A stretch of DNA of 64,000 nucleotides from Naegleria gruberi (lineage: Eukaryota): assembly GCA_000004985.1 (NCBI GenBank), contig GG738853.1, one strand, 5' to 3'. Shown piece by piece: positions 18,583 through 58,825 of this stretch. Within the stretch, counting starts at the first letter, position 1; every line of letters starts with the position of its first letter. Both the position numbers and the translations under genes were made by a program. Under the pieces are notes generated by a model that saw only the letters and a program-made list of their open reading frames with translations, was not told where the DNA came from and did not search any database.

Positions 18583-19836
18583 TTATTGTAAAATATTATA
18601 CATTAATAATTCTAAAATATTTGTAATTAAAATAACATGTTTACAACTTTGTATATTTTTAGAATCACATACTAATAATGGTAATTGATAATTAATAGCT
18701 AATTCAATAGAATTATTTAATAAATTTAAATGATTATTATTTAAATATTTAATTAAATTATTTTCATTTTCATTATTAAAAGTATTTAATAACATTATTT
18801 CCATTACATCTAATTGTTCTTCATCATCTTTAAATTTACTACCAATTAATGAATTTGATTTTACTTTTAATCCATTTATAGATTCATTTGTATCTAATTT
18901 CCATATTGGTATATTTAATAAATTATTTAAATTTTCATTAAATAAATAAATTACATAAGTTTTACCTGAATATAAATTTGCTGAAAATATTGATTTTCTT
19001 GAATGTGGTGATTTTATACCACCATGATCTTGAAATGATATTTGTATATATTTACTATTATTATTATTATTATTATTACTATTTATAGAATTATTTAAAT
19101 TATTAAATTCAATTAAATTATTATTATTATTAATAAATAATTCAAATGATTTCATTACAATTCTAAAATCAATAGTTTGATCATATTTATTAAAATCTTG
19201 ATCAATTTTATCACAAATATTATTAACAAATTTAGATTTACCTGTTTTAGAATTACCTTTTACATGAATTCTAAAAAATAAATTAGTTAAATCATCTGAT
19301 CTATTATTAAATTGTGTTTTTGTAATTTCTTTAAATTTAAAATAATATTTTGTAATTGTTTGACATAAAATTCTTTCATTTTTTAAATTATTTAATTTTA
19401 AATTTTTAATTTTATCAGAATTAAATGGAAAATATAATATTCCAATTTCATTTTTTAATAAATATTTCCATATTTGATCACATGGTGTTTTTATTTCATT
19501 ATTTAAATTATTATTTAAAATAGATTGACCACAAATATATTCATACCAATCTTTATTTAACATTGATAATAATGTTAATTCATAAGTATTTAAAAATGAT
19601 ATTATTTCAAATGTCATTTCATGTGTTAAATCAAAATTATTATTAAATATAAATGAAATTGTTTTAATTGATGTACTTGTTGTTGTAGTTGTTGTACTTG
19701 TAGTTGTAGTAGTAGTTGTATTATTATCATTATTATCATTGTTATCATTGTTAATAGTAGTTGTATTATTATCAATTAAATGATGATCGGAAGGATCTTC
19801 TTGTTGATCAATAATAATATGATTATTGTTGATCAT
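18583..19836 (-). CDS. F-box-like protein with a P-loop NTPase-like segment, 417 aa
   Basis: FEIISFLNTYELTLLSMLNKDWYEYI is F-box-like; GNSKTGKS fits Walker A GxxxxGKS; poly-Thr and poly-Asn tracts. Confidence 0.5.
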   Translation of the reverse strand: MINNNHIIIDQQEDPSDHHLIDNNTTTINNDNNDNNDNNTTTTTTTSTTTTTTSTSIKTISFIFNNNFDLTHEMTFEIISFLNTYELTLLSMLNKDWYEYICGQSILNNNLNNEIKTPCDQIWKYLLKNEIGILYFPFNSDKIKNLKLNNLKNERILCQTITKYYFKFKEITKTQFNNRSDDLTNLFFRIHVKGNSKTGKSKFVNNICDKIDQDFNKYDQTIDFRIVMKSFELFINNNNNLIEFNNLNNSINSNNNNNNNSKYIQISFQDHGGIKSPHSRKSIFSANLYSGKTYVIYLFNENLNNLLNIPIWKLDTNESINGLKVKSNSLIGSKFKDDEEQLDVMEIMLLNTFNNENENNLIKYLNNNHLNLLNNSIELAINYQLPLLVCDSKNIQSCKHVILITNILELLMYNILQ

Positions 19837-25313: not shown

Positions 25314-26447
25314 TTATTGAATTGGAATGTATTCTTCTTCATGTTGTTGAGGTGGATGTTGTAGTGATGGAATAATTAGTGTTGAAATTGACTTGTTATT
25401 TTTATAATAATAAAATTGAATAGCAATAATAAAACTAAATAATAAAGTAAAAATACTTCCTAAAATGTAAGGAAATGTTGAAACTACATCCATTGTATTT
25501 GTAATATAAAATAATATTATACTTATTAAATACAATACTTGTGTTAATGTATCAATAATAAACATTAATAACTATAAATATATTTAATAATTAATCATAA
25601 TTAAATTAATTTTGTTAAAAATAATTAAATAAATAAATTTAAAACAAATTATTTCAAAACTTACAGATAAACCTTCAACACTCTTCTTTTTATAATTTTT
25701 AATAATTTGTGGAATGTATGCAATAATATAACAAGTACATGATATATATGAAATTATAATTCCAATTATATTTGCAATTTCATTATCATTATTAATAATT
25801 GAAGTATTACATAATTTTACAGTACTGCTACCATCACCACTACTACTACTAATAAATATATTAAAAAATAATAATAAAACAAATAAAGAAATAATCCAAT
25901 GTGAATTTAATTGATTATATTTTAATTGATTAAATTTTTTTAAAATAAAATTAAAAAATAAAATAAATAATTTTTCATAATAACAATATTGAGTAATAAT
26001 TAAAATATCCATAAAAACATAATAAATAGCTAAATATAATTGAGTAGGTAATTGATTTGTTAAAATACAACCAATTAAATTAGTAACATCACCAATCATC
26101 CAAATAAGGAATAAATAAATTGATAAACCTTTTGCAGATTTAAATACAAAATTTTTAATAACTTGTGGAAATAAACTAATCATACTTGTTAATATACTTA
26201 ATAATCCTAATATATAACTTGTTATTTCATTTGTTTCATAAAAACATTCTCTAAATATTAATGCAATAAATTCATTATAATGATTATTTCCTTTTTTAGT
26301 AGGTAAACATTGACATAAAAATGATGAAAATAATATTTCTTGATTATTTTCATTATTATTATTTAATAAAAATGTTTCATTATTAAATAATATAGGTAAT
26401 GATGATGATGATGATGAATAAAATGATAAAAATTGTTTACTATTCAT
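25314..26447 (-). CDS. PQ-loop repeat 7-TM transporter (PQLC2/LAAT-1/cystinosin family). Exons on the minus strand are 26447..25665 and 25571..25314.
   Basis: Two PQ-loops (LFPQVIKNFVFKSAKGLSIYLFLIWMIGD and YIPQIIKNYKKKSVEGLS) with seven hydrophobic helices. GTAAGT donor after ...GLS and a 93-nt intron. The ATG could also be 26501. Confidence 0.7.
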
Positions 26448-26497
26448 TTCAGTGCATTTTTTTAAAAAAATCTTTACAATAAAATTATTTTTTATTA

Positions 26498-27004
26498 TCA
26501 TAATATTATCATCAATATTATCATTAACATATTATTATTATTAGATATAATATTATTATTATTTTCAATATTAATAGTAAAATCATCATGATAATAAGGA
26601 CCAAATAAATCTCTAAATAAAGCATATGAACATAATTTAGTAGTATAATATGTTTTTAAATAAAAATTAGATAATGGTAATGATATTTGATAAAATAAAA
26701 ATCCAAATGTTAATCCAGTTGATATTTGTGTTAGAGTATTAATATATTTATTAGATATCTTTTTAAATGATTTTTGAAATATAAATAAAGATGAAAATGT
26801 TCCGATTATTGAAAATGGATATTTAATTAATGTTGAATATCCATCTTGTGGTATTTTAATCATTAATGATGTTAAATAGGCTCTTTTTGTATATTTATAT
26901 TTACTATTATTATTATTATTATTATTATTGGATGATGATGATGGTATTGTTGTTGTTATTGATGATGATTTGAGTTGTTGTTGTGTAGTTGAATTATTTT
27001 CCAT
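26498..27004 (-). CDS. Hypothetical 168-aa ORF with two hydrophobic segments; either a separate gene or a 5' exon of the PQ-loop gene
   Basis: ORF with a poly-Asn tract. Its start is only 55 bp downstream of the PDE stop and its stop overlaps the PQ-loop ORF by 4 nt in another frame. Confidence 0.3.
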   Translation of the reverse strand: MENNSTTQQQLKSSSITTTIPSSSSNNNNNNNNSKYKYTKRAYLTSLMIKIPQDGYSTLIKYPFSIIGTFSSLFIFQKSFKKISNKYINTLTQISTGLTFGFLFYQISLPLSNFYLKTYYTTKLCSYALFRDLFGPYYHDDFTINIENNNNIISNNNNMLMIILMIIL

Positions 27005-30635: not shown

Positions 30636-33243
30636 ATGATCAAAATATTAAATCCTCTATTACTATGCCTATTAATATTATTATTTCTAATTAATAATAT
30701 TAAATGTGCATCATTTACAACAAGTTATTCAATGAAAACATGTTCATTATCAAATTCATTATTATCCAATTCTAATAGTGATATATTTACATCTACATCT
30801 ACTACATCATCTGGATGTTCCTCATCATCAACATTTCAAATTGCCATTAAATTTGGAGATGAAGGAGTTCCACGTGATTTAAAACTCTCACTCTCAAAAG
30901 ATGATAAAATTCAAAATAGTTTAGATTCAACTGATTTTTATTCATTATCTAATGATATTATTATTAAAATAGAAAGAACTGATTTAAAAGTATCATATCC
31001 ATTAACTTTTATTAAAACATTAAAAAATTCATATGAAACTATTGAAACAAGTGTTAAAGATTGTAATAATTTAAATAATAATAATATGGATGAATATTCT
31101 AAATGTTGTGGACCCTATTATTATAATGATAATTCAAATTCAAATTTAAATTCAAATAAATATTATAATATTAGAAAATTAAATTATAATACTACCAATT
31201 ATAATCAATATGAAATTGGAAAATCACAATTACAATATTATATTCAATTTACAATACAACAATTAGATTTAAAATATAGTTTAATGTTATCAAATAATCA
31301 AAAATCATTAATTTTTAAAGGAATTAAAATTTCAATTGAAAATGATTTTTTAAAATTAACAAATTTAGATTTTTATTATTTAACACATTATTATATTATA
31401 CCTGAAAATCAATTAGATGGTTTTGTAATTCCTAAAAATTTAATTAATAAAGATATAAATAAAATTGGAATTACTAAAGAAATTTATAAAAATAATATTA
31501 ATTGTAATGATGAATTAGGTGATATAGTTACCATATTAGGAAATAATAATATATATGATCAATTTTATAGTTTTAGATCTAAATTTTTATTAAATTTAAT
31601 TGATGATTGTTATTTTAAAGATAAAAATCAAAATTTAATTAATTTTAATTGTGTAAAAACTATTAAAAATACAATTTTAATTAATTTACCATTTGGAGAT
31701 TCAAATTCATTTTCATTATTAAAATTAAAATCAAATCCAAATATAGTATCAAAAGGTTCTTTTAAAATTGATAATTATTTAATTTCTATTTATTTAGATA
31801 TTTTTAATAATATTGAATCTGATGGTTTAGTTGAAATTACTTTAATTGATTGTTGTATTTTACAAAATAATAATTTTATTTGTAATGTATGTTTTTTTAT
31901 TAATATATTTTTAATTTAATTATTTTTATATTTTATTTAATATTTTTATTTAATTATTAAATATAGAAAACATCAAGTCAATTTACTCAAAAAAGAATAT
32001 CAGGATATGATGTTAGTAAATTTATATTTAATACTAATTTAAATGTAAGTATTCATTAATTATTCAAAAATGATTCAAAAATAATTTATATAATAATTGT
32101 TATGATAATATTACATGATAATAATTTAATTAATATTATTTAATAATAATTTAATCTAATAATTAATATAAATAGATAAATTCAGGTAAATGTATATTTA
32201 ATATAGGTGATAATGGACAAGTATTATTTGAAGAAATTGTAACATTTCAATATCAATCCAATGATAATTCTAATAATAATAATAATAATATAATAATACC
32301 AATATCTAAAGATGAATCACAATGTAATATAATACCAACATCACCAACATCATCTTTATCTAATAGTAATATTAATAGTGTATTTAAATTAAATATAAAA
32401 ACTATAATTGAAAATAATAAAATTAAATGTGAATATGATTGTAATAATATAGATTTAGAATTTGATTATAATGAATATATATGTAAACCAATTAATTGTT
32501 CATCTAAATATTTAGATAAAATTATATTTAATTATAATTTATTAAAATGTGAAATACCAATACAATGTAATCAATTTACACAAATTTATAATTTACAAAA
32601 TAATACATGTATAAATATAGTAAATAATATATATAGTAATGATATATTAAATAGTATTGAAAATATTAATTTTAAAAATATTGAATGTAATAATGGTATT
32701 TTAAATAATTATTTTACATGTATTTGTAATGAAAATTATATTTCCTATTGGAATGATTCAATTTTAAATTTACAATTTTGTAAAATTAATTTATTATTAG
32801 AAAATAATTTACAAAATTTAAATATTAATACAATTTTAGATTATATTTTACAATTAGATTCATATATTCAAATTATTTTAATTATTATTTTATTTTTATT
32901 AATTTTAATTATTTTATTTTTATTTACTTTTACTTGTACTTGTTCATGTTATAAAAAATTAAATAGAAATTATTTTAATAAAATTAAATATGGTAAATTA
33001 GAAAAGAAATCTATTTTTAAATTATTATTTACTATTATATTTCAATGTGATTTTACAACAAGTGAATTTAATTTATCAGAAAAACATTTTAAAAAAATTA
33101 AAAAATTAAAATTAAAATATTTAAATAATAATAATATTGATAATATTGTTGATAACACATTAAATAATGATATTATTAGTAATAATAATAATAGTAATGA
33201 TAATGATATTAAATGTAATAATAATAATAATAATAACAATTGA
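30636..33243 (+). CDS. Cys-rich type I membrane protein with EGF-like modules. Exons are 30636..31886, 31967..32044 (optional, in-frame) and 32176..33243.
   Basis: Signal peptide MIKILNPLLLCLLILLFLINNIKCASF; GTATGT and GTAAGT donors; aatAG acceptors. Exon 3 was checked codon by codon to the TGA at 33241. It carries CEYDCNNIDLEFDYNEYICKPINC and CNNGILNNYFTCICNENY patterns, the TM segment IILIIILFLLILIILFLFTF and a poly-Asn tail. Confidence 0.6.
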
Positions 33244-33878: not shown

Positions 33879-35815
<1,937 letters not shown>

Positions 35816-43703: not shown

Positions 43704-44241
43704 CCAGATTTCTAATTCCTTCTTACTATTATTATGCTAACAAAATCACGAGATGAAAAACAATGAAAATTAGTTTTCCATTTCCTACATTGGAAGGTTA
43801 GCTGGTCAATCAAGATAAATGCAGAGAATGATTAGTCAAAGAATGAGTTGCCAAACCATGGTTTGTTTATTGAATGTTATTTTGTAATATGTGAAATAGG
43901 TTAAATTGTAAAATCATGCAGTAATGTGTTCATTTGGAGCATGTTAAACAACTATTTACCTCTTCTGAATTGTTTCAGGAGTATATTCCAGTGCAATGGA
44001 ATTCATGGGATTTCAAATTCAATTTTTGGCAATCAATTAAATGACTAGATTTGGAGGTATGGAATAATACATCCTTTGAGTGCGTACATTCATACACCAC
44101 TCAATACATGCTATTTATCCTCATCCCTATTAAATAACATGTAACGGTAACATTTTCATAAAGAAGAAGAAATTTTGGAGGGAAATAAAATCACTATAAA
44201 ATTGAACGACTATGTGAATTATATGAAAAAAACAATTGAAA

Positions 44242-45258
44242 ATGAATCATTTAGAACCTAAACTCTTTGAACAATACAAACAATTAGAAAAAGAAGAGGA
44301 AATCCTCAAAGAAAATCCTCATCGTTTTGTTCTCTTTCCACTTCATTATCCTAAAATGTGGGAAATGTACAAAAAGACAATGGCTTCATTCTGGACAGTG
44401 GAGGAGGTTGATCTTCACACTGATATAACTGAATGGGAAAAACTCAATTCTAATGAACAACATTTCATCAAGACAGTGCTGGCCTTCTTTGCAGCCAGTG
44501 ATGGAATTGTCAATGAAAATCTATGTCAACAATTCATGGCACAAGTTCAAGTACCAGAAGCAAGATGTTTCTATGGATTTCAAATTGCCATTGAAAATAT
44601 TCATGCTGAAATGTATAGTACTCTCATTGAAACTCTGATTAAAGACCAAAGAGAAAGAAATCGTCTATTTCATGCCATTGATACAGTACCATCAGTTCAA
44701 AAGAAAGCTAACTGGGCATTGAAATGGATTAATTCTGAGAATTTGTTTGCTGAAAGATTGTTGGCATTTGCATGTGTGGAGGGAATTTTCTTCTCTGGAA
44801 GTTTTTGTTCAATTTTCTGGTTAAAGAAACGTGGTCTGATGCCTGGTTTATCATTCTCTAATGAATTGATATCTCGTGATGAAGGGTTACATACAGATTT
44901 CGCATGTTTACTCTATTCCACATTGAAATACACTAAATTACCTCAACAAGTAGTTCATTCACTTGTTTATGAAGCTGTTGAGATTGAGAAGGAATTTATC
45001 AGTGAAAGTTTACCAGTTGATTTGATTGGAATGAATAGTAGATTAATGCAACAATATATTGAAATGGTTGCTGATAGATTGTTGGTTTCTATTGGATATG
45101 AAAAGATTTATAACTCATCAAATCCATTCGATTGGATGAATATCATATCTGTCAGTGGAAAGACAAACTTTTTTGAGAAGAAAGTTGGAGAATATGCCAA
45201 GGCAAATATAATGTCCAATAAGAAAGATAAGGTTTTCAGATTGGATGATGATTTTTAA
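44242..45258 (+). CDS. rnrB: Ribonucleoside-diphosphate reductase small subunit (R2), 338 aa
   Basis: [50 protein letters not shown], the iron ligands and the Tyr-radical region. The ATG is at 44242; the track ORF starts at an upstream TTG. Confidence 0.9.
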
Positions 45259-46134: not shown

Positions 46135-46779
46135 ATGGTCTCCCATAACAACGCAGTCCCACAAAGCAAGTGGAAGAAGCAATGGACTAACAGAGTCAAA
46201 TTGTTCTTCGATGGTCCAGCTAAGGCTAAGAAGAGACAAGAATTGAGAATCAAGAAGGCTAAGAATGTCTTCCCAAGACCAACCGAATTGTTGAGACCTG
46301 TTGTCAGACTCTCCGGAAGAAGATATAACAGAAGAGTTGCTTTGGGTAGAGGTTTCTCTGTTGAAGAATTGAAGCAAGCTGGTATTCCACTCCAATTCGC
46401 AAAGACTGTTGGTATTGCTATTGACACCAGAAGAAAGGATTTGAGCGAAGAAAGACTCCAAGCTAACGTCCAAAGACTCCAAGAATACAAGCAAAGAGTT
46501 GTTTTGTTCCCAAGAAAGAAGGGTACCGTTAAGAAGGGTCCAATTGCTGATGCTCAAGTTGCTAAGGCTGAATCTCAAGTCAGAGGTACCGTCCTCCCAG
46601 TCAAGAGAGAAGTCGCTGTTGTTGAAACCAGAGATATTTCTGCTCAAGAAAAGGAATCATCAGCTGTTAAGTCTATTGTCAAGGCCAGAAAGTCCATCAA
46701 GCAATTCTCTTATCTCCAAAAGAAGAAGAATAAGGCTGTTGTTGCTACCCCAGCTGGTGCCGTTGTTGCTGACGAATAA
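46135..46779 (+). CDS. rpl13: 60S ribosomal protein L13 (eL13)
   Basis: Colinear with human RPL13 (…RPxxxLRPVVRxxxxRYNxRVxxGRGFSxEELKxAGI…QANVQRLxEYxxxxxLFPRK…). Confidence 0.9.
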   Translation: MVSHNNAVPQSKWKKQWTNRVKLFFDGPAKAKKRQELRIKKAKNVFPRPTELLRPVVRLSGRRYNRRVALGRGFSVEELKQAGIPLQFAKTVGIAIDTRRKDLSEERLQANVQRLQEYKQRVVLFPRKKGTVKKGPIADAQVAKAESQVRGTVLPVKREVAVVETRDISAQEKESSAVKSIVKARKSIKQFSYLQKKKNKAVVATPAGAVVADE

Positions 46780-47121: not shown

Positions 47122-49547
47122 TTAAGAGAAGCGATAAATTGTTGGGACTCCATTCGTATCATCGCAAATAACGCAAAAACCTTGTTCATTGAATTGATTC
47201 AATACCAATGTTAAAACATCTTTTTCTACTACTTTTGGTTGTTGATTCAAAATGAATGATTTAAAGCTTTCCAATTCAATAGAGCCGCTCTGTGTCTTTC
47301 TTATTAAGTGATGCTTAATATAAGAGACATAGTCAAAATTGGCTGGTACTGTTGTTTCTTTCTTTGTTTTCTTTACAGTTTCTATTGTTGTAATTATTTG
47401 TTTAGCTCCACAATTTAAATAATTTAAACTTCCATCAAAAATTTTAAATACCATTTCAACATCCTCTTCCAAAATTTCATTTCTCATATGAAGTTTAGCC
47501 ATAGCTGATGATAATCTAATTAATGCTTCAAGTGTTCTTGGTGTAATTGGAAAATGAGCTCTTTGAGAATCCACTTTCATGAATTCACTTCTCAAATCCA
47601 CATATTTCTGTGAAATCATTTCTCTTGCTTTATCTGTTAAAGCTGGAGAATATTTCGTCTTGGCAAATTGTATATACTTTTTCAATATATTTAGAGGTAC
47701 ATGTAGAGAATCTAATTGTCCTCGTTCTGCTTTTTTAATAATCTCTTCTGTATCAGAGTATGAAATTTCATCTTTTAAATCATTCTTATTAGAGAAGAGA
47801 GTACTATTCAATTCTTCTTTAAGAATATGTGATGTTGATGAATCATTTGTAAATTTGTGAACTCCTAATACATGTCTCGCAATATCTCTATCTAATGTTG
47901 AATCATTTTCATCTGTTAAAACGAAAACCAGATCAAATCTAGATAATAAAGTATCAGGTATCATTATATTTCTATGAATTGGTAAATTTTTATCATATTT
48001 ACCATAAACAGGATTACATGCTCCCAGCACTGAACATCTTGCATTAAGTCTTACAGCAATACCTGCTTTGTAAACTGAAAAAGATTGTTGTTCCATAACT
48101 TCATGCATGTGAACTCTTTCCACATCCGTCATTTTATCCAATTCATCTATACATACAATTCCACCATCTGCTAGAACCATTGCTCCAGCTTGAAGTATTC
48201 TTTCATTATTTTCTGTAACTACAGCTGCTGTTAAACCAACACCACTCGAAGATCTGGCATTGGCTGAAATTGCTAAAGGTGCACAATTAAGTACAAATCT
48301 TAAAAATTGAGATTTAGCTGTTGATGGATCTCCTATTAATAATACATTAATATTTCCTCTTATTTTTGTATTAGTTTCAGTAAATTCCTTATCAACACCT
48401 CCTAGTAAGAAAAGCAATAATGCTTTTTTTATAATGTCATGTCCATATATAGATGGTGCTATTGAATTTGAAAGTATATGAAATATATTTGGACATTTAC
48501 AAAGTTGACTAATTAAAACACTTTCCTTAATAGATATATCATTTAAAGGTGTCACAATTCCACTAGTTTTGATTATATTATTTACAATAAGTGATACTCT
48601 TGCAAGTGATTTTTTCTTTTTTAAAATTCCAGGTATTGAAATCACTTTATAAGTTCCAAATATTTTAACTCGGTCTCCTGCTTTAACTTGATCACATAAA
48701 TCACATTCTAAAATACATTCTATTGATCTAGGTAATTGTCCAACAGGTGATTTTTCAGGTAAATCTTGTAAAACTATTCTTTGAGTATCCACAAAATCTG
48801 AAAGTCCAAATTCAAAATCTAAACTATTTCCTTCAACATCTTCTAATGGAATTGGATTTATAAAATTATTATCATTTAACAAGTTACTTTCATAGTCAAC
48901 TTTGGAAAATATTTTAGTTTTTTCACAATAATGTATTGATGATATTAATCTTTGTGAAATATTTCCACCTTTTTCAATGATATTCATAATATAATATATA
49001 TACAAATTGATAGAATATATAATGGACACATATTTCAAGTAATAAAAAGATATACACAGTATTAATATATAATTGAATAAAAATGGAAATTCATTAACAA
49101 CTTACAACAAGTAACAATTCCTTCTAAACAAATTAATTTTCCTATATGTATTGATTGTAAATATCTGGGCGATAAATCATAAATTGCATTTCCAGAAATC
49201 CCAATAGAAATTTTTGTATCTTGTTCAAAATATTTACAATCAATTTTCTGAATTTCTTCATGTAAAGCAATTTCCAATGAAGGAAATAAATATGAAGGAT
49301 TCATTTGTAATTTATGACAAAGTGTTGTATCATAACTTCGTAAATCATTTAAATCCACAACAAGCCTACAATAATCACTCTGTATAGAAAGTAATCTTTT
49401 TAATTTTGATGAATATACAATTTCTCCCTATACATTATTAATAAAGATGATACATGATGAAAAACCTACATTAACTTGATAGGTTGAGAGAAAATGTCGG
49501 AAGTGTTGAATTTGATGACGAAGTTCGCCTTCATCATTTAAATTCAT
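47122..49547 (-). CDS. MCM-family AAA+ helicase of the MCM8/9 type. The main exon is 47122 to about 49020, with two 5' exons at about 49106..49400 and 49470..49547; the 5' junctions are not resolved.
   Basis: Walker A GDPSTAKSQ, Walker B CIDELDKM, arginine finger SRFDL and the OB-fold GKLICLEGIVT. PRSIECILECDLCDQVKAGDRVKIFGTYKV parallels the MCM8 block [26 protein letters not shown]. The GTAAGT donor after ...GIVTC and the 5' ATG exon (MNLNDEGELRHQIQHFRHFLSTYQVN) are phase-inconsistent as I read them. Confidence 0.65.
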
Positions 49548-50889: not shown

Positions 50890-53800
50890 ATGCCCAAACA
50901 TTCCTTCACTGATTTGTTAATTGTTGCAATAAGTGATGATCATCATACTTCCGATGATGATAATGATGATGAACATGATTGTGATAAATTAATATTTAAA
51001 CATTTTCAACAAATTTCCTCTGCCAGAATTGAAAAAAACAAATCAATTTATAAGCATCTATTATTATTAGAAAACCGATTAGAAACCATTTCCACATTCA
51101 TTGAAAAATATCCATTTCCTGATAATGATTGTAAATTGGCAATTTTTAAAGCAGTGAGTAAAAATGGATTATTTCTGGAAGCAGCTTCTGCAAATTTGAG
51201 AAATGATGAGGAAATTGTAATGAGAGCTGTTAAAAAAAATGTAAATGCTATAGAGTTTGTGAGTGAAGAATTGAGAAGTGATAGAGAATTTGTGAAGAGG
51301 ATGATTGTTTCTGCAAGGGAAAGACTTGGTGGTACTTGTAGCTTTTTCAAACATCTCGACAAATTTCATGACGATGAGGAAATTGTAAAAATGATGGTGA
51401 AGAAATTTGCCAATTCTCTAGAATTTGTATCTACACGATTGAAGAATGAGAGGGAAATTATTTTGGAGGCTGTTAAAAGGAGAGGTTCATCTATTAGATT
51501 TGTACCAGAACATTTGATCGATAGAGAGGTGGTGTTAATATCTGTGAAAAGTTTTTTTCTGGCACTGAAATATGTACCTTCAGAGTTTTTAAATGATAGA
51601 GAAATTCTCTCTGCTGCTATTGACTTTTCAGGAATTTCAATGCAATATGCATCTGATGAGATTAAGAGTGATAGAGAGTTTGTTCTAGAAATGGTAAAAT
51701 TGAAGGGTGATTGTTATTGTTATATAGCAGGCCATCTCAAACTTGATAGGGAAATAGCCATAGAAGCTATAAAGACAAGTTCACAAAGTTTAAGATATGC
51801 ACCTGATCATTTCAAAGATGATGATGAAATTGTTTCAATAGCAGTTAGAAAAGATTTGTCCATTGTTTCTGCTGCTTCACAGAGATTTAGAGATAATGCT
51901 GATTTTATCTATGATATGGCTTCATCAGCATCTCGAGTGCTTGATTATATTACAAATTGTAATTATCCTTTGGCTAACGATAGAGAATTTAATCTAAGAT
52001 TGGTAGAAAAATTTGCCAATTACAGTGAGGATATTAAATATGCACTAAATCACGGAATAGAAAAGGAACTTATTTTGAAATTAATAGAGATAGATCCTGA
52101 TTGCTTTGTAAAGGTACAGAGTGAGGATATTAAGAATGATAGAAAATTATTATTCGATTTATTACCACATGGGGAGGAAATTCTTGACCTAATTCCTGAG
52201 AGTTTGAGTAATGACAGAGAACTCATTCTAAGAGCTGTGAAAATTTATCCTATCGCTTTAAAGATGGCTTCCGAGGAGCTGCGTGCTGATAGAGATATTG
52301 CTGTTCAGGCATTAATGTGTAGTGTTGATAACTTTGAGTTTTTATCAGAGGAATTAAGAAGTGATGGAAAGATAATAGAGGACATTCTTATTAGGGATGC
52401 CTATGTGTTGCAATTTGCGCCAGAATCATTTGGAAATGATAGAGAAATAATAACAACAGCTATCAGAAACTCATTCTCTAATACTTATTCTTTTATAGGG
52501 TATGAACTAAAGGAGGATAGGGAGCTTATTTTAGACTATGTAAAGAGATGTGGATCTATTGAAAATATTCTTCAAGATTTTCGAAACGATAGGGAAATTG
52601 TACTAACAGCTATTCAACAAAATGGAAGTGAATTTCAGTACGCCTCCAAATCTCTACGTAGTGATAGAGAGCTAGCATTAATTGCCGTCAGAAACTCATG
52701 TTCTTTAGAGCATGTACTTGTGGAAAAATTCGATAGAGAGCTTGTTTATGAAGCTTGCAAAATTGAATCAGAAAATCTTGAATATGCTTCAGAGTTTAGA
52801 GATGATGAAGATATTGTTATGGTGGCAGCTTGTTCTGATACTGGTTCAAAGTTTTTCCAGTACGCAAGTGATCGATTGAGAAATAATAGAGATTTTGTTT
52901 TGAAGGTTGCAAAGGTAAATGCTGGAATCATTCGATACATTTCAGAAGAGCTTTGTCAAGATAGGGAAATTATCATGACTGCTGTTTCAGCTGATGGAAA
53001 GTTATTAAAACATGCATCAGAAGAATTGAAAGGCGATAGACAAGTTGTGGAAAAGGCAATCAATTCATATTCTCGTTCCTTGAAATTTGCTTCTGAATAT
53101 TTAAGAAAAGATCAAGAGTTATTTGAAAAAGCTATATCAAAAGAATTAACCTATTCTCTCGCCACAAATAAGGAAATGATGAACAAAATTGATGTGAAAA
53201 TAATAGAGAAATGTGTGGTTGAACAAGGATATTCACTTAGTTATGTACCTGATTCTGTAAAAAGGAATAGAAGTCTTGTTATTAAGGCTGTAAATGCTGA
53301 CATGGATAATATTTTACATGTGCCACACGAGTTGATTGACAAGGAATTCATTATGGAATTGTCTCCAGCCAAGTTCAATATATTATTACTTCCACTCAAA
53401 TGGAGAAGAGATAGAGATATAGTATTGAAGGCATTGGAAAGTAATGGAAAAACAATAGTTTACCTTTCAGAGGAATTTAAAAATGAATTTAAAAACAACA
53501 GGGAAATATTACTGAAAGCAATGAAAACTGACAGCATTCCTTTCATTTATGCAAGTGAAGAATTACAAAATGATAGAGAATTTGTTTTGGAATCTGTTGC
53601 AACAAATGGAAAGGTATTAAATCACGTACCACTTGAATATCAGCTAGACAGAGAAATTGTCTTGACAGCTGTCAAAAATGATGGAAATTCTATTGAATTT
53701 GGAGCCACTTGCTTCATGAAAGATAGAGAAATTATGTGGAATGTAGTTCAAAACTTTTTATCAGAGAAAAATACATCCAATCCACTTATTTATGGCTCAT

Positions 53801-54087
53801 TTGAAATACGAAGTGATAGAGAACTAGTTCTGGAAGCTGTTCGACATGATTACAACGCCCTAGACTATGCTGCTCAAGAATTGTTATGTGATGAAGAATT
53901 TATGACCCAATGTGTGGAAATTAACATTAACAGTCTAATGTATGCCCATTATCAATTAAGATTCAACATTGATTTCCTTAAACGATTGAACAAGACAGAA
54001 ATTATTAGTGAAACAACTGATTTACATGACTGTATTGATATTGAAGGACTATTAGGATATTATCCAAAGTTAAAAGGTTTAATTTAA
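50890..54087 (+). CDS. DUF4116-repeat protein, 1065 aa (about 25 tandem units)
   Basis: Repeats such as REIVMRAVKKNVNAIEFVSEELRSDREFVKRMI and REIILEAVKRRGSSIRFVPEHLIDREVVL; acidic N-terminus. Confidence 0.6.
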   Translation: MPKHSFTDLLIVAISDDHHTSDDDNDDEHDCDKLIFKHFQQISSARIEKNKSIYKHLLLLENRLETISTFIEKYPFPDNDCKLAIFKAVSKNGLFLEAASANLRNDEEIVMRAVKKNVNAIEFVSEELRSDREFVKRMIVSARERLGGTCSFFKHLDKFHDDEEIVKMMVKKFANSLEFVSTRLKNEREIILEAVKRRGSSIRFVPEHLIDREVVLISVKSFFLALKYVPSEFLNDREILSAAIDFSGISMQYASDEIKSDREFVLEMVKLKGDCYCYIAGHLKLDREIAIEAIKTSSQSLRYAPDHFKDDDEIVSIAVRKDLSIVSAASQRFRDNADFIYDMASSASRVLDYITNCNYPLANDREFNLRLVEKFANYSEDIKYALNHGIEKELILKLIEIDPDCFVKVQSEDIKNDRKLLFDLLPHGEEILDLIPESLSNDRELILRAVKIYPIALKMASEELRADRDIAVQALMCSVDNFEFLSEELRSDGKIIEDILIRDAYVLQFAPESFGNDREIITTAIRNSFSNTYSFIGYELKEDRELILDYVKRCGSIENILQDFRNDREIVLTAIQQNGSEFQYASKSLRSDRELALIAVRNSCSLEHVLVEKFDRELVYEACKIESENLEYASEFRDDEDIVMVAACSDTGSKFFQYASDRLRNNRDFVLKVAKVNAGIIRYISEELCQDREIIMTAVSADGKLLKHASEELKGDRQVVEKAINSYSRSLKFASEYLRKDQELFEKAISKELTYSLATNKEMMNKIDVKIIEKCVVEQGYSLSYVPDSVKRNRSLVIKAVNADMDNILHVPHELIDKEFIMELSPAKFNILLLPLKWRRDRDIVLKALESNGKTIVYLSEEFKNEFKNNREILLKAMKTDSIPFIYASEELQNDREFVLESVATNGKVLNHVPLEYQLDREIVLTAVKNDGNSIEFGATCFMKDREIMWNVVQNFLSEKNTSNPLIYGSFEIRSDRELVLEAVRHDYNALDYAAQELLCDEEFMTQCVEININSLMYAHYQLRFNIDFLKRLNKTEIISETTDLHDCIDIEGLLGYYPKLKGLI

Positions 54088-54347: not shown

Positions 54348-55319
54348 ATGAAAGTGAATCTAATCTTTTCAATTGCAATTCTACTCTTGCTTGCAATCCT
54401 CTCAGTTCAAGCAAGTGACAACTATCAAACTAAACCTCCAGTTGTCGTAGTCGACAAGTATCACAAGCCAAGAGTTTGTAAGAGAAAATGCTTAAAGCAC
54501 AAGTGGATTAAGAAGTGTTTGAAACATAAACTCGTTGGTCAAAAGAAGGTCTGTGATCAATATGCAATTGTTGGCGCTGGCAAATGTCTCAAACATAAGA
54601 AATATTCCAAATGTGACAAGTACAGCAAGCCAACAAAGAAGTGTGTCTTACATGCATACAAGATTGTTGGATGCGCCAAGAAGAAGTACTGGAAAGTTTG
54701 CGATTCTTATGGAACTAAGAAGATTTGTGTTAAGAAGGGTTTCAAGAAATTCTGTGCCAAACACAAGATTATCAACAAGTGTTTCAAGAAGGGATTTAAG
54801 AAGGTCTGTAAGAAATTCAAGAAGGTTCCAATCAAGAAGTGTGAAAAGAAGAAGATTTGTGACAAGTACACTGTTGATTCCTACAATAAGAAGGTTGCCA
54901 AATGTAGATATGTTAAAAAGTGCAAGATTGTTTCATGGGCAAAGAAATGTGCCAAGTATAAGAAGGTTAAATATTGTAAGGAGAGAAAATCTGTTAAGAA
55001 GTGTTGTCTCATTAAGAAGAAATTCTTCTGTGCCAAGCATAAGATCTTCAAGTTCTGTAAGCACAAGAAGACTATTTCCAAATGTGTCAAATATCAAAAG
55101 AAGAAGTATTGTGCCAAGACAATTATTATTCCTCCAAGATGTATCAAGAAGAAGTATTATAAGAAGTGTTTGAAACGTTCAAAGGGAAAGAAGATTTGTA
55201 AGAAATTTAAGTTGGTTGGTGGAAAGAAGAAGTGTTGCAAGTCAATCAAGAAGAAGATTTGTATCAAGAGAAAGACATGTAAGAAGGTATCAAAGCCAAT
55301 CATCAAACCATCCTTGTAA
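54348..55319 (+). CDS. Secreted, extremely Lys- and Cys-rich repetitive protein, 323 aa
   Basis: Signal peptide MKVNLIFSIAILLLLAILSVQAS, then reiterated CxKHK / KKGFKKxC / KKC units. Roughly one third Lys and about 12% Cys. The +1-frame ORF 54535-55173 is a shadow of the AAG repeats. Confidence 0.6.
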   Translation: MKVNLIFSIAILLLLAILSVQASDNYQTKPPVVVVDKYHKPRVCKRKCLKHKWIKKCLKHKLVGQKKVCDQYAIVGAGKCLKHKKYSKCDKYSKPTKKCVLHAYKIVGCAKKKYWKVCDSYGTKKICVKKGFKKFCAKHKIINKCFKKGFKKVCKKFKKVPIKKCEKKKICDKYTVDSYNKKVAKCRYVKKCKIVSWAKKCAKYKKVKYCKERKSVKKCCLIKKKFFCAKHKIFKFCKHKKTISKCVKYQKKKYCAKTIIIPPRCIKKKYYKKCLKRSKGKKICKKFKLVGGKKKCCKSIKKKICIKRKTCKKVSKPIIKPSL

Positions 55320-57109: not shown

Positions 57110-58825
57110 TTAATCTTTCAAAGATGTAATGAAGGATGCAAATTCTGTATTGGAATTTTTCAATCTTTCGAATAAATCGGTCATGTCAATCAGACAATGT
57201 TGTTGAATTTTGTGAAATAGATTGGCAGGTGGTTTTTCAGTTAGTTGGGAAGTTATTTCAGAATTACATTGTTCAATTTTTGGAATGTTGAGCTCTAGGG
57301 GACTATTAATTGATAAGTACACTTGTAAAATGTGATTTGCAATCTTTTTTCTGTTTTTGGTTGACCTTTTGTATCTTTGAATATCTTTCCAACATTGTAA
57401 ACTCTCAGTGCAATAACTTCTTCTTGCAAAATCCAACATTATTTTAAACATCTTCTTATTTTTCAAAACTTTTTCAATATTTGATTCATTACTTTCATTG
57501 GAATTCAATTTTGTGTAATCGAAATAAATTGATCGAATTACTGGTATTGTACAACACATAAATAATTCAAAATACATGTAACCCCAAATGAAAAACCCAT
57601 AGGGAACATAATAATCTACCAATTCAGATATTACCTCAATACTTCCACATATAATAAATAATATTGCTGAGAGTAATTGAACTATGGTTACAATAAATGA
57701 TTCCTTCTTAATTCCCCACGTATCCTTATCTGCCTTAACACACAATGCAAGAAATATCAATTCCAAAATGACATAGCCAACTACCTCCAATCCAATAGTT
57801 AGAACAGTATAGAAAGTCATTGAACATCCATGTCTGAATTCAAACATACTCGATTCAACCACAAATATTCGATTGTTAGAATTGGAATTGAGTGCTTCAT
57901 CAATTCCTCCAAGAATGGCCCAAATAATAAATCCAAATATAAATGAACATAAATAAACTGTTCCCATAAATTTTGTACTGACTAGAAAATTGTAAATTTG
58001 TAATTTTCTCATTTCCTTTTTTAGAGAAGCCATATCTTTAACATCAGCAGCTGACCATGTTGTTGAAATAGTGTCATTATCTAAATCATCAGTACTGGCA
58101 CTAGATGTTCTATTAGATGAACCTCCATCAGAATGATATGATGAATTTTCAACTGGTTGTTGATGCTCATTATTTCCTTTGATAGTATTGGAAACTTCTT
58201 GTAAATTGACTCCATGTACTTGAAATGAATCCATTTTTGTAATGACAAGTTCTGCTCCACTATTTGGTGGTAAGCTTTCAATAGATTCCAATGTTAATTG
58301 TTGATCCACTAATTCATGTTTCTTTGATTCTGAATCAATTGTATTCGATTCAAATAGTTTCGTCTTGGTTAAATTAATCTTGTACATGAAGAAAGCTCTC
58401 ATAAATCTAAATATTAATGGCAATGCAATCGCCTGTGGGAATGTAAAGAAGCCAATTGTCATCAAACCACATGGAAATGTCTTGCTCGACACTATTCTCC
58501 TCAATGTCAACACAACAACAAACCAAATCGAAGCTCCCAAAGTAAAAAACAAATAAACTGGATTCCTAGCACTAACATAACTACTATTCCTCTTCCATAT
58601 TACTCCCAACAATGAAAAAACCAGTGTTATCAAATAAACTATTAGAAACGTTAATGTAATTGCGAAGGAAAAATAAGTGTCTGGACAAAGTCCATAATTT
58701 AAAGTTGCATTTGATGATTCCCTGCTCCAGGGCGTATTCATAAGTGAAGGATGACATCTACTAGCGTTTTGATTGTTATTATTGATTAATTGAAGAACAG
58801 AGAAGAGATTGTTAAATGGCGACAT
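57110..58825 (-). CDS. Seven-transmembrane protein with a C-terminal RGS domain (7TM-RGS architecture, as in plant RGS1)
   Basis: Seven hydrophobic helices (three, then a long loop, then four). The C-terminal MFKIMLDFARRSYCTESLQCWKDIQRYKRS...IANHILQVYLSINSPLELNI matches the RGS fold consensus. Confidence 0.6.
   Translation of the reverse strand: MSPFNNLFSVLQLINNNNQNASRCHPSLMNTPWSRESSNATLNYGLCPDTYFSFAITLTFLIVYLITLVFSLLGVIWKRNSSYVSARNPVYLFFTLGASIWFVVVLTLRRIVSSKTFPCGLMTIGFFTFPQAIALPLIFRFMRAFFMYKINLTKTKLFESNTIDSESKKHELVDQQLTLESIESLPPNSGAELVITKMDSFQVHGVNLQEVSNTIKGNNEHQQPVENSSYHSDGGSSNRTSSASTDDLDNDTISTTWSAADVKDMASLKKEMRKLQIYNFLVSTKFMGTVYLCSFIFGFIIWAILGGIDEALNSNSNNRIFVVESSMFEFRHGCSMTFYTVLTIGLEVVGYVILELIFLALCVKADKDTWGIKKESFIVTIVQLLSAILFIICGSIEVISELVDYYVPYGFFIWGYMYFELFMCCTIPVIRSIYFDYTKLNSNESNESNIEKVLKNKKMFKIMLDFARRSYCTESLQCWKDIQRYKRSTKNRKKIANHILQVYLSINSPLELNIPKIEQCNSEITSQLTEKPPANLFHKIQQHCLIDMTDLFERLKNSNTEFASFITSLKD

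What the first reader, a model, noticed from the sequence alone, without database searches (positions are those of the whole stretch)
54348..55319. Secreted polycationic Lys/Cys-rich repeat protein
After a clean signal peptide, 300 residues consist almost only of K, C and a few hydrophobics, in iterated CxKHK / KKGFKKxC / KKC units (pI well above 10, about 40 cysteines). No enzymatic motif is present. Candidate roles are a disulfide-knotted extracellular matrix or spore-coat component, a nucleic-acid or polyanion binder, or an antimicrobial effector of a bacterivorous amoeba. I do not recognise it as a described family.
Basis: partly seen in the sequence, partly recalled or inferred. Interest (0 to 1): 0.6.

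Follow-up and report, generated by a model that had tools for sequence, protein, structure and literature searches.

The report
Secreted lysine-rich disulfide-ladder hairpin protein
This is a real, probably abundant secreted Naegleria protein from an undescribed family; its chain appears to fold back on itself into one long, positively charged rod held by about 15 disulfide rungs, but its role (cyst wall or matrix is my best guess) is untested.

Summary
The ORF at 54348-55319 (+) is real: 323 aa with a signal peptide. The mature part is 35% Lys and has 32 Cys (not about 40), net charge about +104 and pI 10.6-11.2.

The window comes from a Naegleria close to N. gruberi NEG-M. The protein belongs to a small family with no description. 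It has four N. gruberi paralogues, N. fowleri FDP41_004030, N. lovaniensis C9374_009239, a Willaertia magna protein and a few soil or metagenome sequences. All are labelled "hypothetical". There is no Pfam, PDB-sequence or PDB-fold match.

The new result is that the Cys spacing is mirror-symmetric about a loop at residues 172-185. A nested antiparallel pairing fits all eight full-length members better than every shuffle of their own spacings. Insertions and deletions are compensated on the two halves in different lineages. AlphaFold2 places its strands in the same register. I infer one giant hairpin with about 15 disulfide rungs plus two spare Cys.

All 7 Asp lie in D-x-Y motifs, which concentrate in the tails and the apex loop. 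Codon usage matches the ribosomal-protein and ATP-synthase genes in the window.

Best guess at function: an abundant, cross-linkable polycationic strut of the cyst wall or extracellular matrix. An antimicrobial or prey-binding role is not excluded.

The parts
54348..54413 (+). Signal peptide, residues 1-22 (MKVNLIFSIAILLLLAILSVQA), with predicted cleavage after V-Q-A
   Evidence: Read directly from the sequence. The MK + hydrophobic stretch is conserved in all full-length homologues. AF2 predicts a helix at residues 3-21. No SignalP run was possible.
54414..54476 (+). N-terminal tail, residues 23-43 (SDNYQTKPPVVVVDKYHKPRV), outside the ladder; carries two D-x-Y motifs (D24, D36)
   Evidence: AF2 pLDDT is below 50 here.
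54477..54860 (+). N strand of the inferred hairpin, residues 44-171. It carries 15 rung cysteines: 44, 48, 57, 69, 80, 89, 99, 109, 118, 127, 136, 145, 154, 165, 171. It has three C-D-x-Y motifs and matched Gly/Pro irregularities at residues 63-65, 76-79 and 93-95.
   Evidence: Cys positions are. The pairing comes from the dynamic-programming fit. AF2 strands are E47-63, E66-75, E80-92 and E96-145.
54861..54902 (+). Apex loop, residues 172-185 (DKYTVDSYNKKVAK), between C171 and C186; carries two D-x-Y motifs
   Evidence: This is the centre of the mirror symmetry. The first AF2 model places a hairpin, E147-171 with E186-211, around it.
54903..55280 (+). C strand of the inferred hairpin, residues 186-311. 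It carries 15 rung cysteines: 186, 192, 201, 210, 219, 228, 237, 246, 255, 265, 274, 284, 296, 305, 311. These pair with the N-strand cysteines so that residue numbers i + j sum to about 353-357.
   Evidence: cost 12 against a shuffle mean of 29.1 and minimum of 18. AF2 strands are E213-261, E265-277, E281-290 and E293-309, which mirror the N-strand set.
55005..55007 (+). Spare cysteine C220 (second Cys of the CC doublet 219/220), unpaired in the ladder model; candidate for an intermolecular disulfide
   Evidence: The codon was checked.
55236..55238 (+). Spare cysteine C297 (second Cys of the CC doublet 296/297), unpaired in the ladder model; candidate for an intermolecular disulfide
   Evidence: The codon was checked.
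55281..55319 (+). C-terminal tail, residues 312-323 (KKVSKPIIKPSL), plus the TAA stop; not hydrophobic, so there is no GPI-type or transmembrane end
   Evidence: Paralogues carry tandem (V/I)D(S/T)YKP repeats at this position.

Best explanation
**What it is**
The gene encodes a secreted protein of about 35 kDa. It belongs to an undescribed family restricted to heteroloboseans: Naegleria, Willaertia and environmental relatives.

**How it folds (inferred)**
- After signal-peptide removal, the 268-residue core (residues 44-311) folds back on itself at a 14-residue apex loop (172-185).
- This gives a single, very long two-stranded antiparallel ribbon.
- About 15 disulfide rungs staple the two strands: C171-C186, C165-C192, and so on out to C44-C311. 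There is one rung roughly every 9 residues on each strand.
- The rungs hold together two strands that would otherwise repel each other, because the rod carries about 105 positive charges, almost all from Lys.
- If extended, the rod would be about 40 nm long.

**Features that suggest cross-linking (inferred)**
- Two spare cysteines, C220 and C297, are left unpaired by the ladder.
- The D-x-Y tyrosine motifs cluster in the tails and the apex loop, that is, at the two ends of the rod.
- These suggest covalent intermolecular cross-linking through disulfides and possibly oxidative Tyr/Lys chemistry.

**Most likely role**
It is an abundant extracellular structural polycation. I think it is a strut or mortar of the cyst wall or another secreted matrix. 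It would stick electrostatically to anionic polymers or surfaces and be locked in place by cross-links.

**Shown versus inferred**
- Shown: the gene, its composition, the Cys periodicity, the family and its taxonomic range, the mirror symmetry with compensatory indels, and the codon bias.
- Inferred: the disulfide map, the rod shape, secretion, cross-linking, and location in a wall or matrix.
- My confidence is about 0.75 in the hairpin-ladder architecture and about 0.4 in the structural wall or matrix role.
For: **Gene and family**
- The ORF is intact and aligns end to end with homologues.
- A profile search of 1.84 billion representative proteins found only 21 hits. Every named one is from Naegleria or Willaertia.

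**Hairpin ladder**
- Read outwards from the apex, the N-half Cys spacings are 6, 11, 9, 9, 9, 9, 9, 10, 10, 9, 11, 12, 9, 4. The C-half spacings are 6, 9, 9, 9, 9, 9, 9, 9, 10, 9, 10, 12, 9, 6.
- A nested antiparallel pairing fitted by dynamic programming beats all 300 spacing shuffles for each of the 8 full-length members.
- Lineage-specific indels are compensated on both strands:
  - P0003 shortens 12/12 to 9/9 and 11/10 to 9/9.
  - P0005 and P0006 have 17 opposite 18.
  - P0007 and P0025 have 15-17 opposite 21.
  - P0015 has 11/11, 13/13 and 12/12.
- Facing segments share irregularities: KLVGQKK faces KLVGGKK, Gly-rich faces Gly-rich, and Pro faces Pro.
- AF2 with 16 sequences gives pLDDT above 90 for about residues 70-140 and 220-290. 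Its strand boundaries are mirrored with i + j of about 356-358. The low-confidence 4-sequence model independently places a hairpin around the apex.
- A DNA duplication cannot produce a mirror-image protein spacing, so the symmetry must reflect a structural constraint.

**Abundance**
- Third-position GC outside Lys codons is 0.33. This equals RPL13e (0.30) and ATP synthase (0.33). Eight other genes in the window score 0.11-0.22.
- ATA is never used and TTC is 73% of Phe codons.

**Cross-linking and structural lean**
- There are 1-3 spare Cys in every member.
- All 7 Asp are in D-x-Y, against 0.35 expected by chance. The enrichment holds in the Naegleria paralogues.
- The non-ladder motifs, (V/I/P)D(S/T/P)Y..P, sit in the tails, apex loops and the lengthened segments.
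- There are no N-glycosylation sequons and no anchor.
- Regularly spaced Cys with presumed intermolecular disulfides is the hallmark of apicomplexan oocyst-wall proteins (PMC4514997).
Against: - No expression, localisation or biochemical data exist for any member. The wall or matrix role therefore rests on analogy.
- The disulfide map is inferred, not measured.
- A 9-residue (odd) rung period would place alternate rungs on opposite faces and at hydrogen-bonded sites of a regular beta-ribbon. The real geometry may therefore be irregular.
- Two tests that could have supported cross-strand packing gave no signal. These were enrichment of facing hydrophobic pairs and dyad sequence similarity of facing segments.
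- The AF2 alignment is shallow (16 sequences) and pTM is 0.29. AF2 is prone to drawing long hairpins for repetitive sequences.
- The AAG preference could partly reflect avoidance of poly(A) runs. The longest A-run is 5 despite 107 Lys codons.
- The main known cyst-wall polysaccharides, cellulose and chitin, are neutral. An anionic partner is therefore hypothetical.
Confidence: 0.4

Rival explanations
1. It is an antimicrobial or prey-handling polycation. The protein would be delivered to phagosomes or released into the medium, where its polylysine-like surface binds, agglutinates or permeabilises bacterial envelopes. In effect it would be a giant version of the cationic disulfide-stapled beta-hairpin peptides.
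For: - The inferred architecture is the same principle as protegrin and tachyplesin: one antiparallel hairpin, cross-strand disulfides and strong positive charge (class definition in PMC13001179).
- Naegleria feeds on bacteria.
- Codon bias fits an abundant granule cargo as well as it fits a wall protein.
- Multiple diverging paralogues are typical of defence effectors.
Against: - The class defined in PMC13001179 is 11-25 residues long and strongly enriched in Arg over Lys. This protein is 301 residues with Lys:Arg of 107:7.
- No amphipathic face or facing hydrophobic stripe was detected.
- The conserved feature across the family is the Cys frame, not the charge. The distant members P0013 and P0015 have only about 13% Lys and 7-8% Glu.
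- Spare Cys and terminal Tyr motifs suggest polymerisation rather than a soluble effector.
Confidence: 0.2
2. It is a secreted adhesive. The Lys-plus-Tyr rod would glue trophozoites or cysts to negatively charged substrata such as mineral surfaces or biofilm, in the way Lys/DOPA mussel foot proteins work.
For: - Very high Lys content, together with (V/I)D(S/T)YKP-type tandem motifs in the tails of paralogues, for example IDSYKP x3 at the N. fowleri C-terminus.
- These resemble in composition the Lys/Pro/Ser-Thr/Tyr decapeptides of mussel foot protein 1. That comparison is from my own knowledge and was not tested.
- The protein is secreted and has no anchor.
Against: - Tyr is only 5% in the window protein, and its own tails carry just two such motifs.
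- There is no evidence for DOPA formation or for a tyrosinase partner.
- This reading overlaps with the structural-matrix explanation rather than excluding it.
Confidence: 0.1
3. The cysteines pair with their sequence neighbours, giving C-x8-C loops. The protein would then be a string of about 16 small cationic disulfide loops, possibly a polyprotein cut at basic sites into loop peptides, rather than one hairpin.
For: - The dominant C-x8-C spacing is compatible with small loops.
- Single-loop cationic peptides exist as a class (from my own knowledge).
- Naegleria is known to make pore-forming peptides from multi-peptide precursors (from my own knowledge).
Against: - Neighbour pairing predicts no coupling between the N and C halves.
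- Spacing irregularities are nevertheless mirrored, and indels are compensated across the two halves in five independent lineages. All 8 proteins beat all 300 shuffles.
- The CC doublets are awkward for neighbour pairing.
- There are no regular dibasic processing sites flanking the units, because Lys is everywhere.
Confidence: 0.07
4. It is not a functional secreted protein. It would be either a low-complexity ORF or annotation artefact, or an intracellular nucleic-acid-binding (protamine-like or histone-like) protein whose N-terminus is not a signal peptide.
For: - The composition is extreme.
- The AAG-rich frame spawns a spurious overlapping 212-aa ORF.
- The N. gruberi NEG-M model of the orthologue is a chimera.
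- The linear charge density would suit DNA binding.
Against: - The reading frame, the Cys frame and the N-terminal hydrophobic segment are conserved from Naegleria to Willaertia and in metagenomic relatives, at 27-76% identity.
- Codon usage is selected.
- 32 regularly spaced Cys make sense only in an oxidising, secretory compartment.
Confidence: 0.04

Closest known systems
Cationic beta-hairpin antimicrobial peptides with cross-strand disulfides (protegrin, tachyplesin, gomesin; the theta-defensin 'cystine ladder')
   Same: A single antiparallel hairpin, nested cross-strand disulfides and strong net positive charge (definition in PMC13001179). This is the closest match in structural principle.
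   Different: - The known peptides are 11-25 residues with 1-3 rungs and are rich in Arg.
- This protein is 301 mature residues with about 15 rungs and Lys:Arg of 107:7.
- No amphipathic face was detected.
- There is no sequence relationship.
Apicomplexan oocyst wall proteins (COWP/TgOWP/EnOWP)
   Same: Signal peptide, regularly spaced cysteines throughout the protein, multigene family in a cyst- or oocyst-forming protist, and presumed disulfide cross-linking in a resistant wall (PMC4514997).
   Different: [quoted passage not shown] They are not polycationic and are not reported to be mirror-symmetric.
- No sequence similarity was detected by Pfam or profile searches.
- They come from a different eukaryotic supergroup.
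Plant extensins (basic hydroxyproline-rich wall glycoproteins); comparison from my own knowledge
   Same: Secreted, rod-like, basic, and rich in Lys, Tyr, Val and His. They are thought to scaffold walls by binding acidic polymers and by Tyr-Tyr cross-links at short motifs.
   Different: - In extensins the rod is a glycosylated polyproline-II helix of SPPPP repeats. Here the inferred rod is a disulfide-stapled hairpin.
- This protein has no SPPPP, no YxY motif and no glycosylation sequons.
Antistasin-like domain proteins of Naegleria and Willaertia (PMC12482156)
   Same: Another lineage-typical set of secreted, Cys-rich repeat proteins in the same genera.
   Different: The antistasin domain (Pfam PF02822 / IPR004094) is not detected in the window protein or in any of 16 family members at E<=1. 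The Cys pattern is different.
Lys/Tyr (DOPA) adhesive and tanning proteins: mussel foot protein 1 and trematode eggshell precursors; comparison from my own knowledge
   Same: Short tandem motifs that combine Lys, Pro, Ser/Thr and Tyr in secreted proteins that harden by oxidative cross-linking. The family's (V/I)D(S/T)YKP tail repeats have a similar composition.
   Different: - Those proteins are dominated by the Tyr motif and lack a Cys ladder.
- Here the motif is confined to tails and loops.
- DOPA or dityrosine has not been shown.

Membership tests
Undescribed heterolobosean 'Lys/Cys ladder' family (N. gruberi NAEGRDRAFT_67458, _64980, _66117, _76199; N. fowleri FDP41_004030; N. lovaniensis C9374_009239) | Significant full-length sequence similarity with a conserved Cys frame | tested here: met
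   E-values are 1e-126 to 1e-14 for full-length members. The Cys columns are conserved in alignments A1 and A2.
Undescribed heterolobosean 'Lys/Cys ladder' family | N-terminal signal peptide followed by a mirror-symmetric Cys spacing (nested antiparallel pairing) | tested here: met
   All 8 full-length members fit better than 300 of 300 spacing shuffles.
Beta-hairpin antimicrobial peptides (PMC13001179) | Length of 11-25 residues | tested here: not met
   The mature protein is 301 residues.
Beta-hairpin antimicrobial peptides (PMC13001179) | Single antiparallel hairpin closed by two or more cross-strand disulfides; cationic | tested here: inconclusive
   The protein is cationic (+104). The hairpin and nested pairs are inferred from spacing symmetry and AF2 and have not been measured.
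Beta-hairpin antimicrobial peptides (PMC13001179) | Strong enrichment of Arg over Lys | tested here: not met
   107 Lys against 7 Arg.
Beta-hairpin antimicrobial peptides (PMC13001179) | Membrane-disruptive antimicrobial activity | not testable with these tools
   Needs a bactericidal assay.
Apicomplexan oocyst wall proteins (COWP/OWP) | Type I or type II repeats of six regularly spaced Cys; sequence homology | tested here: not met
   No apicomplexan protein appeared among the 21 profile hits and there was no Pfam hit. The Cys pattern is a 9-residue mirror ladder, not six-Cys tandem units.
Apicomplexan oocyst wall proteins (COWP/OWP) | Localisation in a resistant cyst or oocyst wall | not testable with these tools
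   No localisation or stage-expression data were found.
Antistasin-like domain proteins | Match to the antistasin domain model | tested here: not met
   hmmscan against Pfam-A at E<=1 gave 0 families for the window protein and no antistasin hit in 16 members.
Extensins / hydroxyproline-rich glycoproteins | Ser-Pro(3-5) repeats and YxY / VYK cross-link motifs | tested here: not met
   The sequence was inspected directly. There are only 9 Pro and no SPPP or YxY motif.
Metallothioneins | Small cytosolic protein with about 30% Cys in CxC / CC / CxxC clusters | tested here: not met
   Cys is 10%, spaced 9 residues apart, and the protein has a signal peptide.

The most novel reading that the evidence does not exclude
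The family would represent a protein architecture not seen among solved structures. A single chain of about 270 residues would zip into one two-stranded ribbon about 40 nm long, stapled by 14-19 nested disulfide rungs and coated with about 100 lysines. Heteroloboseans would secrete it as a redox-settable, cross-linkable polycationic strut. It would also be the first molecularly defined component of the Naegleria cyst wall, with an orthologue in the pathogen N. fowleri.
Probability: 0.3. Interest if true: 0.8.

Novelty: new variant of a known kind. Interest (0 to 1): 0.6.

Why it matters
- **Protein architecture.** If the ladder model holds, this is by far the longest cystine-ladder hairpin known. 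It would be a natural design for a stiff, highly charged protein nanorod whose integrity depends on redox state.
- **Naegleria biology.** I found no paper describing Naegleria cyst-wall or matrix proteins, although my searches were not a systematic review. The family has an orthologue in N. fowleri, whose cysts resist disinfection. It is therefore a concrete candidate for localisation and knock-down studies.
- **Proteomics blind spot.** Trypsin would cut the mature protein into 109 peptides. Only 7 of these are 7 residues or longer, so standard proteomics would tend to miss it.
- **Method.** Mirror-symmetric Cys spacing with compensatory indels is a simple sequence-only signature. It could be used to search for similar hairpin ladders elsewhere.

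Tried and rejected
- **DNA-level tandem repeats.** Only two trivial arrays were found, so this is not a recent repeat expansion.
- **Paralogues in the window.** tblastn found none.
- **Domain and structure libraries.**
  - Pfam gave nothing for the window protein or for 16 family members.
  - The PDB sequence profile search gave nothing at E<=10.
  - Foldseek against PDB gave only E>1 hits with TM about 0.05, to the long hairpin stems of lysenin and aerolysin pores.
  - The AFDB Foldseek library was not available.
- **Second word-indexed homologue search with the alignment.** It was swamped by low-complexity candidates and added nothing.
- **Genomic context of N. gruberi paralogues.** They are not on record.
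- **Literature and supplements.** There were no hits for the locus tags or accessions. Nothing relevant appeared in the supplements of the N. fowleri cyst/trophozoite and omics papers or in the Acrasis paper. I could not retrieve the early biochemical work on N. gruberi cyst walls.
- **Enrichment of facing hydrophobic pairs in the mirror register.** No signal: 0.109 against 0.11-0.15 for shifted registers.
- **Dyad sequence similarity of facing segments.** No general signal. It is only anecdotal for the KLVGxKK, Gly and Pro segments.
- **Simple fixed-apex mirror test.** It failed for P0003 and P0013 because of extra or doubled Cys. The dynamic-programming version that allows unpaired Cys resolved both.
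- **Direct internal duplication of the two halves as the cause of the pattern.** Rejected. Mirrored spacing fits better than direct spacing (summed difference 6 against 16, from the values). A duplication cannot create a mirror image.
- **Metallothionein, antistasin, extensin and COWP membership.** All rejected; see the membership tests.
Full report
**1. The observation**

The window holds an uninterrupted ORF at 54348-55319 on the + strand, encoding 323 aa.
- The N-terminus, MKVNLIFSIAILLLLAILSVQA|SD, has the layout of a cleavable signal peptide.
- The rest is 35% Lys and 10.7% Cys, with about 30% V, I, Y, F, L and A. It has only 7 Asp, 2 Glu and 7 Arg.
- There are 32 cysteines, not about 40.
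- Net charge at pH 7 is about +103 to +105. pI is 10.6, or 11.2 if all Cys are oxidised.
- The repeat is not a DNA-level tandem array.
- It is a degenerate 9-residue protein periodicity. Cys autocorrelation at lag 9 is 16, against a maximum of 12 at any lag in 5000 shuffles, with harmonics at 18, 27 and 36.
- The 14 exact 9-mers give the consensus C-x-K-(K/H/Y)-K-Φ-x-K-(K/Φ), where Φ is a hydrophobic residue.

**2. Organism and family**

The best database hits are Naegleria proteins.
- The C-terminal 137 residues are 94% identical to the end of N. gruberi NEG-M model NAEGRDRAFT_76199.
- That model is a chimera with an unrelated SAM/PB1 protein that is not in this window.
- The exact window protein is not in the 15-billion-sequence collection. 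The window therefore comes from a close relative of NEG-M.

A profile search of 1.84 billion representative proteins found only 21 hits.
- Named members are N. gruberi NAEGRDRAFT_67458, _64980 and _66117, N. fowleri FDP41_004030, N. lovaniensis C9374_009239 and Willaertia magna ABK040_005866.
- The remaining hits are soil, metagenome or SRA-assembly fragments.
- All are labelled predicted or hypothetical.

No Pfam family matches the window protein or any of 16 members at E<=1. No PDB chain matches the family profile at E<=10. No paper in the library mentions the locus tags.

The Cys columns are conserved across the family. This includes the distant members P0013 and P0015, which have only about 13% Lys and 7-8% Glu. 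The conserved core of the family is therefore the cysteine frame. The extreme lysine content is an elaboration in Naegleria.

**3. Architecture: a mirror-symmetric cysteine ladder**

I listed the Cys positions and saw that the spacings are palindromic about the loop C171-DKYTVDSYNKKVAK-C186.
- Read outwards from the loop, the N half gives 6, 11, 9, 9, 9, 9, 9, 10, 10, 9, 11, 12, 9, 4.
- The C half gives 6, 9, 9, 9, 9, 9, 9, 9, 10, 9, 10, 12, 9, 6.
- The second Cys of the two CC doublets is left over.

I then fitted a nested antiparallel pairing by dynamic programming, allowing unpaired Cys at a penalty. I compared each fit with the same fit on shuffled spacings.
- Each of the eight full-length members scored better than all 300 shuffles. 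For the window protein the cost was 12, against a null mean of 29.1 and a minimum of 18.

The irregular spacings differ between lineages but change together on both halves:

| Lineage | N strand | C strand |
|---|---|---|
| P0003 (compared with the window protein) | 12 → 9 and 11 → 9 | 12 → 9 and 10 → 9 |
| P0005 / P0006 | 17 | 18 |
| P0007 / P0025 | 15-17 | 21 |
| P0015 | 11, 13, 12 | 11, 13, 12 |

P0005 and P0006 also have a 40-residue apex loop.

A DNA duplication yields a direct repeat of spacings, never a mirror image. The direct comparison also fits worse (summed difference 16 against 6). The symmetry must therefore be a structural constraint: residue i is held opposite residue about 355-i.

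Facing segments also share their irregularities:
- KLVGQKK faces KLVGGKK.
- IVGAGK faces SKGKK.
- SKPTKK faces IIIPPR.

AlphaFold2 agrees independently.
- With 4 sequences the model was poor (pLDDT 45). It still placed a hairpin, E147-171 with E186-211, around the apex.
- With 16 sequences mean pLDDT rose to 72.8, with values above 90 for about residues 70-140 and 220-290.
- The strand set is E47-63, 66-75, 80-92 and 96-145, mirrored by E213-261, 265-277, 281-290 and 293-309. This gives i + j of about 356-358.

I infer one giant antiparallel hairpin with 15 disulfide rungs and strands of 128 and 126 residues. It would be about 40 nm long if extended. It would have matched kinks and two spare cysteines, C220 and C297. 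Other members have 14-19 rungs and 1-3 spare Cys.

**Caveats on the architecture**
- The disulfide map has not been measured.
- An odd rung period is awkward for a perfectly regular beta-ribbon.
- Two further tests gave no signal: facing hydrophobic pairs and dyad similarity of facing segments.
- A domain-swapped antiparallel dimer would satisfy the same symmetry.

**4. Other features that bear on function**
- **D-x-Y motifs.** All seven Asp residues lie in D-x-Y, against 0.35 expected, and no shuffle in 500 reached this. The same enrichment holds in the Naegleria paralogues but not in the distant metagenomic members.
  - One class is C-D-x-Y, directly after a rung Cys.
  - The other class is (V/I/P)D(S/T/P)Y..P. 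It sits in the N and C tails, the apex loops and the lengthened inter-rung segments, that is, in the parts that protrude from the ladder. An example is IDSYKP x3 at the N. fowleri C-terminus.
- **Codon usage.**
  - GC3 is the highest of all long ORFs in the window (0.48).
  - With Lys codons excluded it is 0.33, equal to RPL13e (0.30) and ATP synthase alpha/beta (0.33). Eight other genes score 0.11-0.22.
  - ATA is absent, and TTC, AAG, GAC and ATC are preferred.
  - This suggests high expression in some stage.
  - The AAG preference may also reflect avoidance of A-runs. The longest is 5.
- **Other sequence features.** There are no N-glycosylation sequons and no hydrophobic C-terminus.
- **Proteomics.** Trypsin would yield 109 peptides. 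Only 7 are 7 residues or longer, covering 67 of 301 residues. This may explain why the protein does not appear in proteomic studies.

**5. Most likely mechanism**

*Supported by the sequence analysis above:*
- a probably abundant protein that enters the secretory pathway;
- a core built on a conserved, mirror-symmetric Cys frame.

*Inferred:*
- oxidative folding zips the two halves into a disulfide-stapled rod;
- the rungs counteract the repulsion between two polycationic strands;
- the lysine surface binds anionic polymers or surfaces;
- the spare Cys and the tyrosine motifs at the rod ends allow covalent assembly into a network.

I judge the most likely setting to be the cyst wall or another secreted matrix. 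This is by analogy with periodic-Cys oocyst wall proteins (PMC4514997). It is also by analogy with basic, rod-like, Tyr-cross-linked extensins, which I cite from my own knowledge. My confidence is about 0.75 for the architecture and about 0.4 for the role.

**6. Rivals**
- **Antimicrobial or prey-binding polycation (0.2).** This shares the structural principle of beta-hairpin antimicrobial peptides. It fails two of that class's defining features as compiled in PMC13001179: length 11-25 residues, and Arg over Lys.
- **Surface adhesive (0.1).** This overlaps with the matrix idea.
- **String of neighbour-paired C-x8-C loops, or a polyprotein (0.07).** The coupling between the halves contradicts it.
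- **Artefact or intracellular nucleic-acid binder (0.04).** Conservation, codon selection and the signal peptide contradict it.

**7. Comparison with known families and novelty**

There is no sequence or fold membership in any described family. This includes antistasin-like proteins, a different secreted Cys-rich repeat set reported in Naegleria and Willaertia (PMC12482156).

In working principle it combines two known ideas: cross-strand disulfide-stapled cationic hairpins, and periodic-Cys wall proteins. It does so at a scale (about 15 rungs, about 270 residues) and with a mirror-symmetric design that I could not find described. I rate it a new variant of a known kind. There is a substantial chance that the architecture itself is new.

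**8. Verdict**

Its functional suggestions remain open. The added value here is the family definition, the inference about abundance and the hairpin-ladder model, which gives a precise and falsifiable disulfide map. Interest: 0.6.

Noticed in passing
window 50890-54087 (+): The gene immediately upstream encodes a 1065-aa protein made almost entirely of 24 DUF4116 repeats (Pfam E = 9e-193). This is a repeat family of unknown function.
   Followed up: partly
window 17320-18420 (-), 18583-19836 (-), 30636-31919 (+), 25584-26501 (-), 12296-13630 (-): Several long ORFs have extremely AT-rich third positions (GC3 0.02-0.08, with virtually no AAG, TAC or TTC). Other genes in the same 64-kb window have GC3 of 0.2-0.5. 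Codon usage in the window is therefore strikingly bimodal. One of these ORFs has an Asparaginase_2 domain and two have no Pfam hit.
   Followed up: partly
N. gruberi NEG-M model NAEGRDRAFT_76199 (P0002), compared with window 54906-55316: The public gene model fuses a SAM/PB1-domain protein to the last 137 residues of the orthologue. The SAM/PB1 part has no counterpart in the window. The model, or its 39.8-kb scaffold, is probably chimeric or misassembled.
   Followed up: partly
window 54535-55173 (+), overlapping frame: A 212-aa Arg/Ser-rich ORF lies in another frame of the same strand. It is a by-product of the AAG-rich coding frame and is not a gene.
   Followed up: yes
L002 3836-5977 (P0013; also P0024): A metagenomic relative carries the ladder module at its C-terminus. 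It also has an N-terminal module of about six further Cys repeats with spacing 18-5-5-(8-12), rich in 'CP' and 'C(K/R)AG'. That module has no Pfam match either. The organism is unknown.
   Followed up: no
P0022 (539 aa, profile hit at E = 6e-7): This protein has about 25 tandem copies of CDRH(K/T)LIGAGH, followed by what looks like an enzyme domain. It resembles the CDQYAIVGAGKC segment of the window protein. The match is probably spurious, or the repeat may be a translated intron.
   Followed up: no
L003 290-1264 (SRR32051688): An orthologue from another Naegleria-like source is split into two ORFs (114 aa and 198 aa) by a stop or frameshift after residue 114. This could be an assembly error, a short intron or a pseudogene.
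   Followed up: partly
window 46135-46779 (+), 34124-35815 (+), 47122-49038 (-), 44236-45258 (+), 57110-58825 (-): The window also holds housekeeping genes: ribosomal protein L13e, an ATP synthase alpha/beta-family subunit, an MCM helicase, the ribonucleotide reductase small chain and an RGS-domain protein. The first two served as references for high-expression codon usage.
   Followed up: yes
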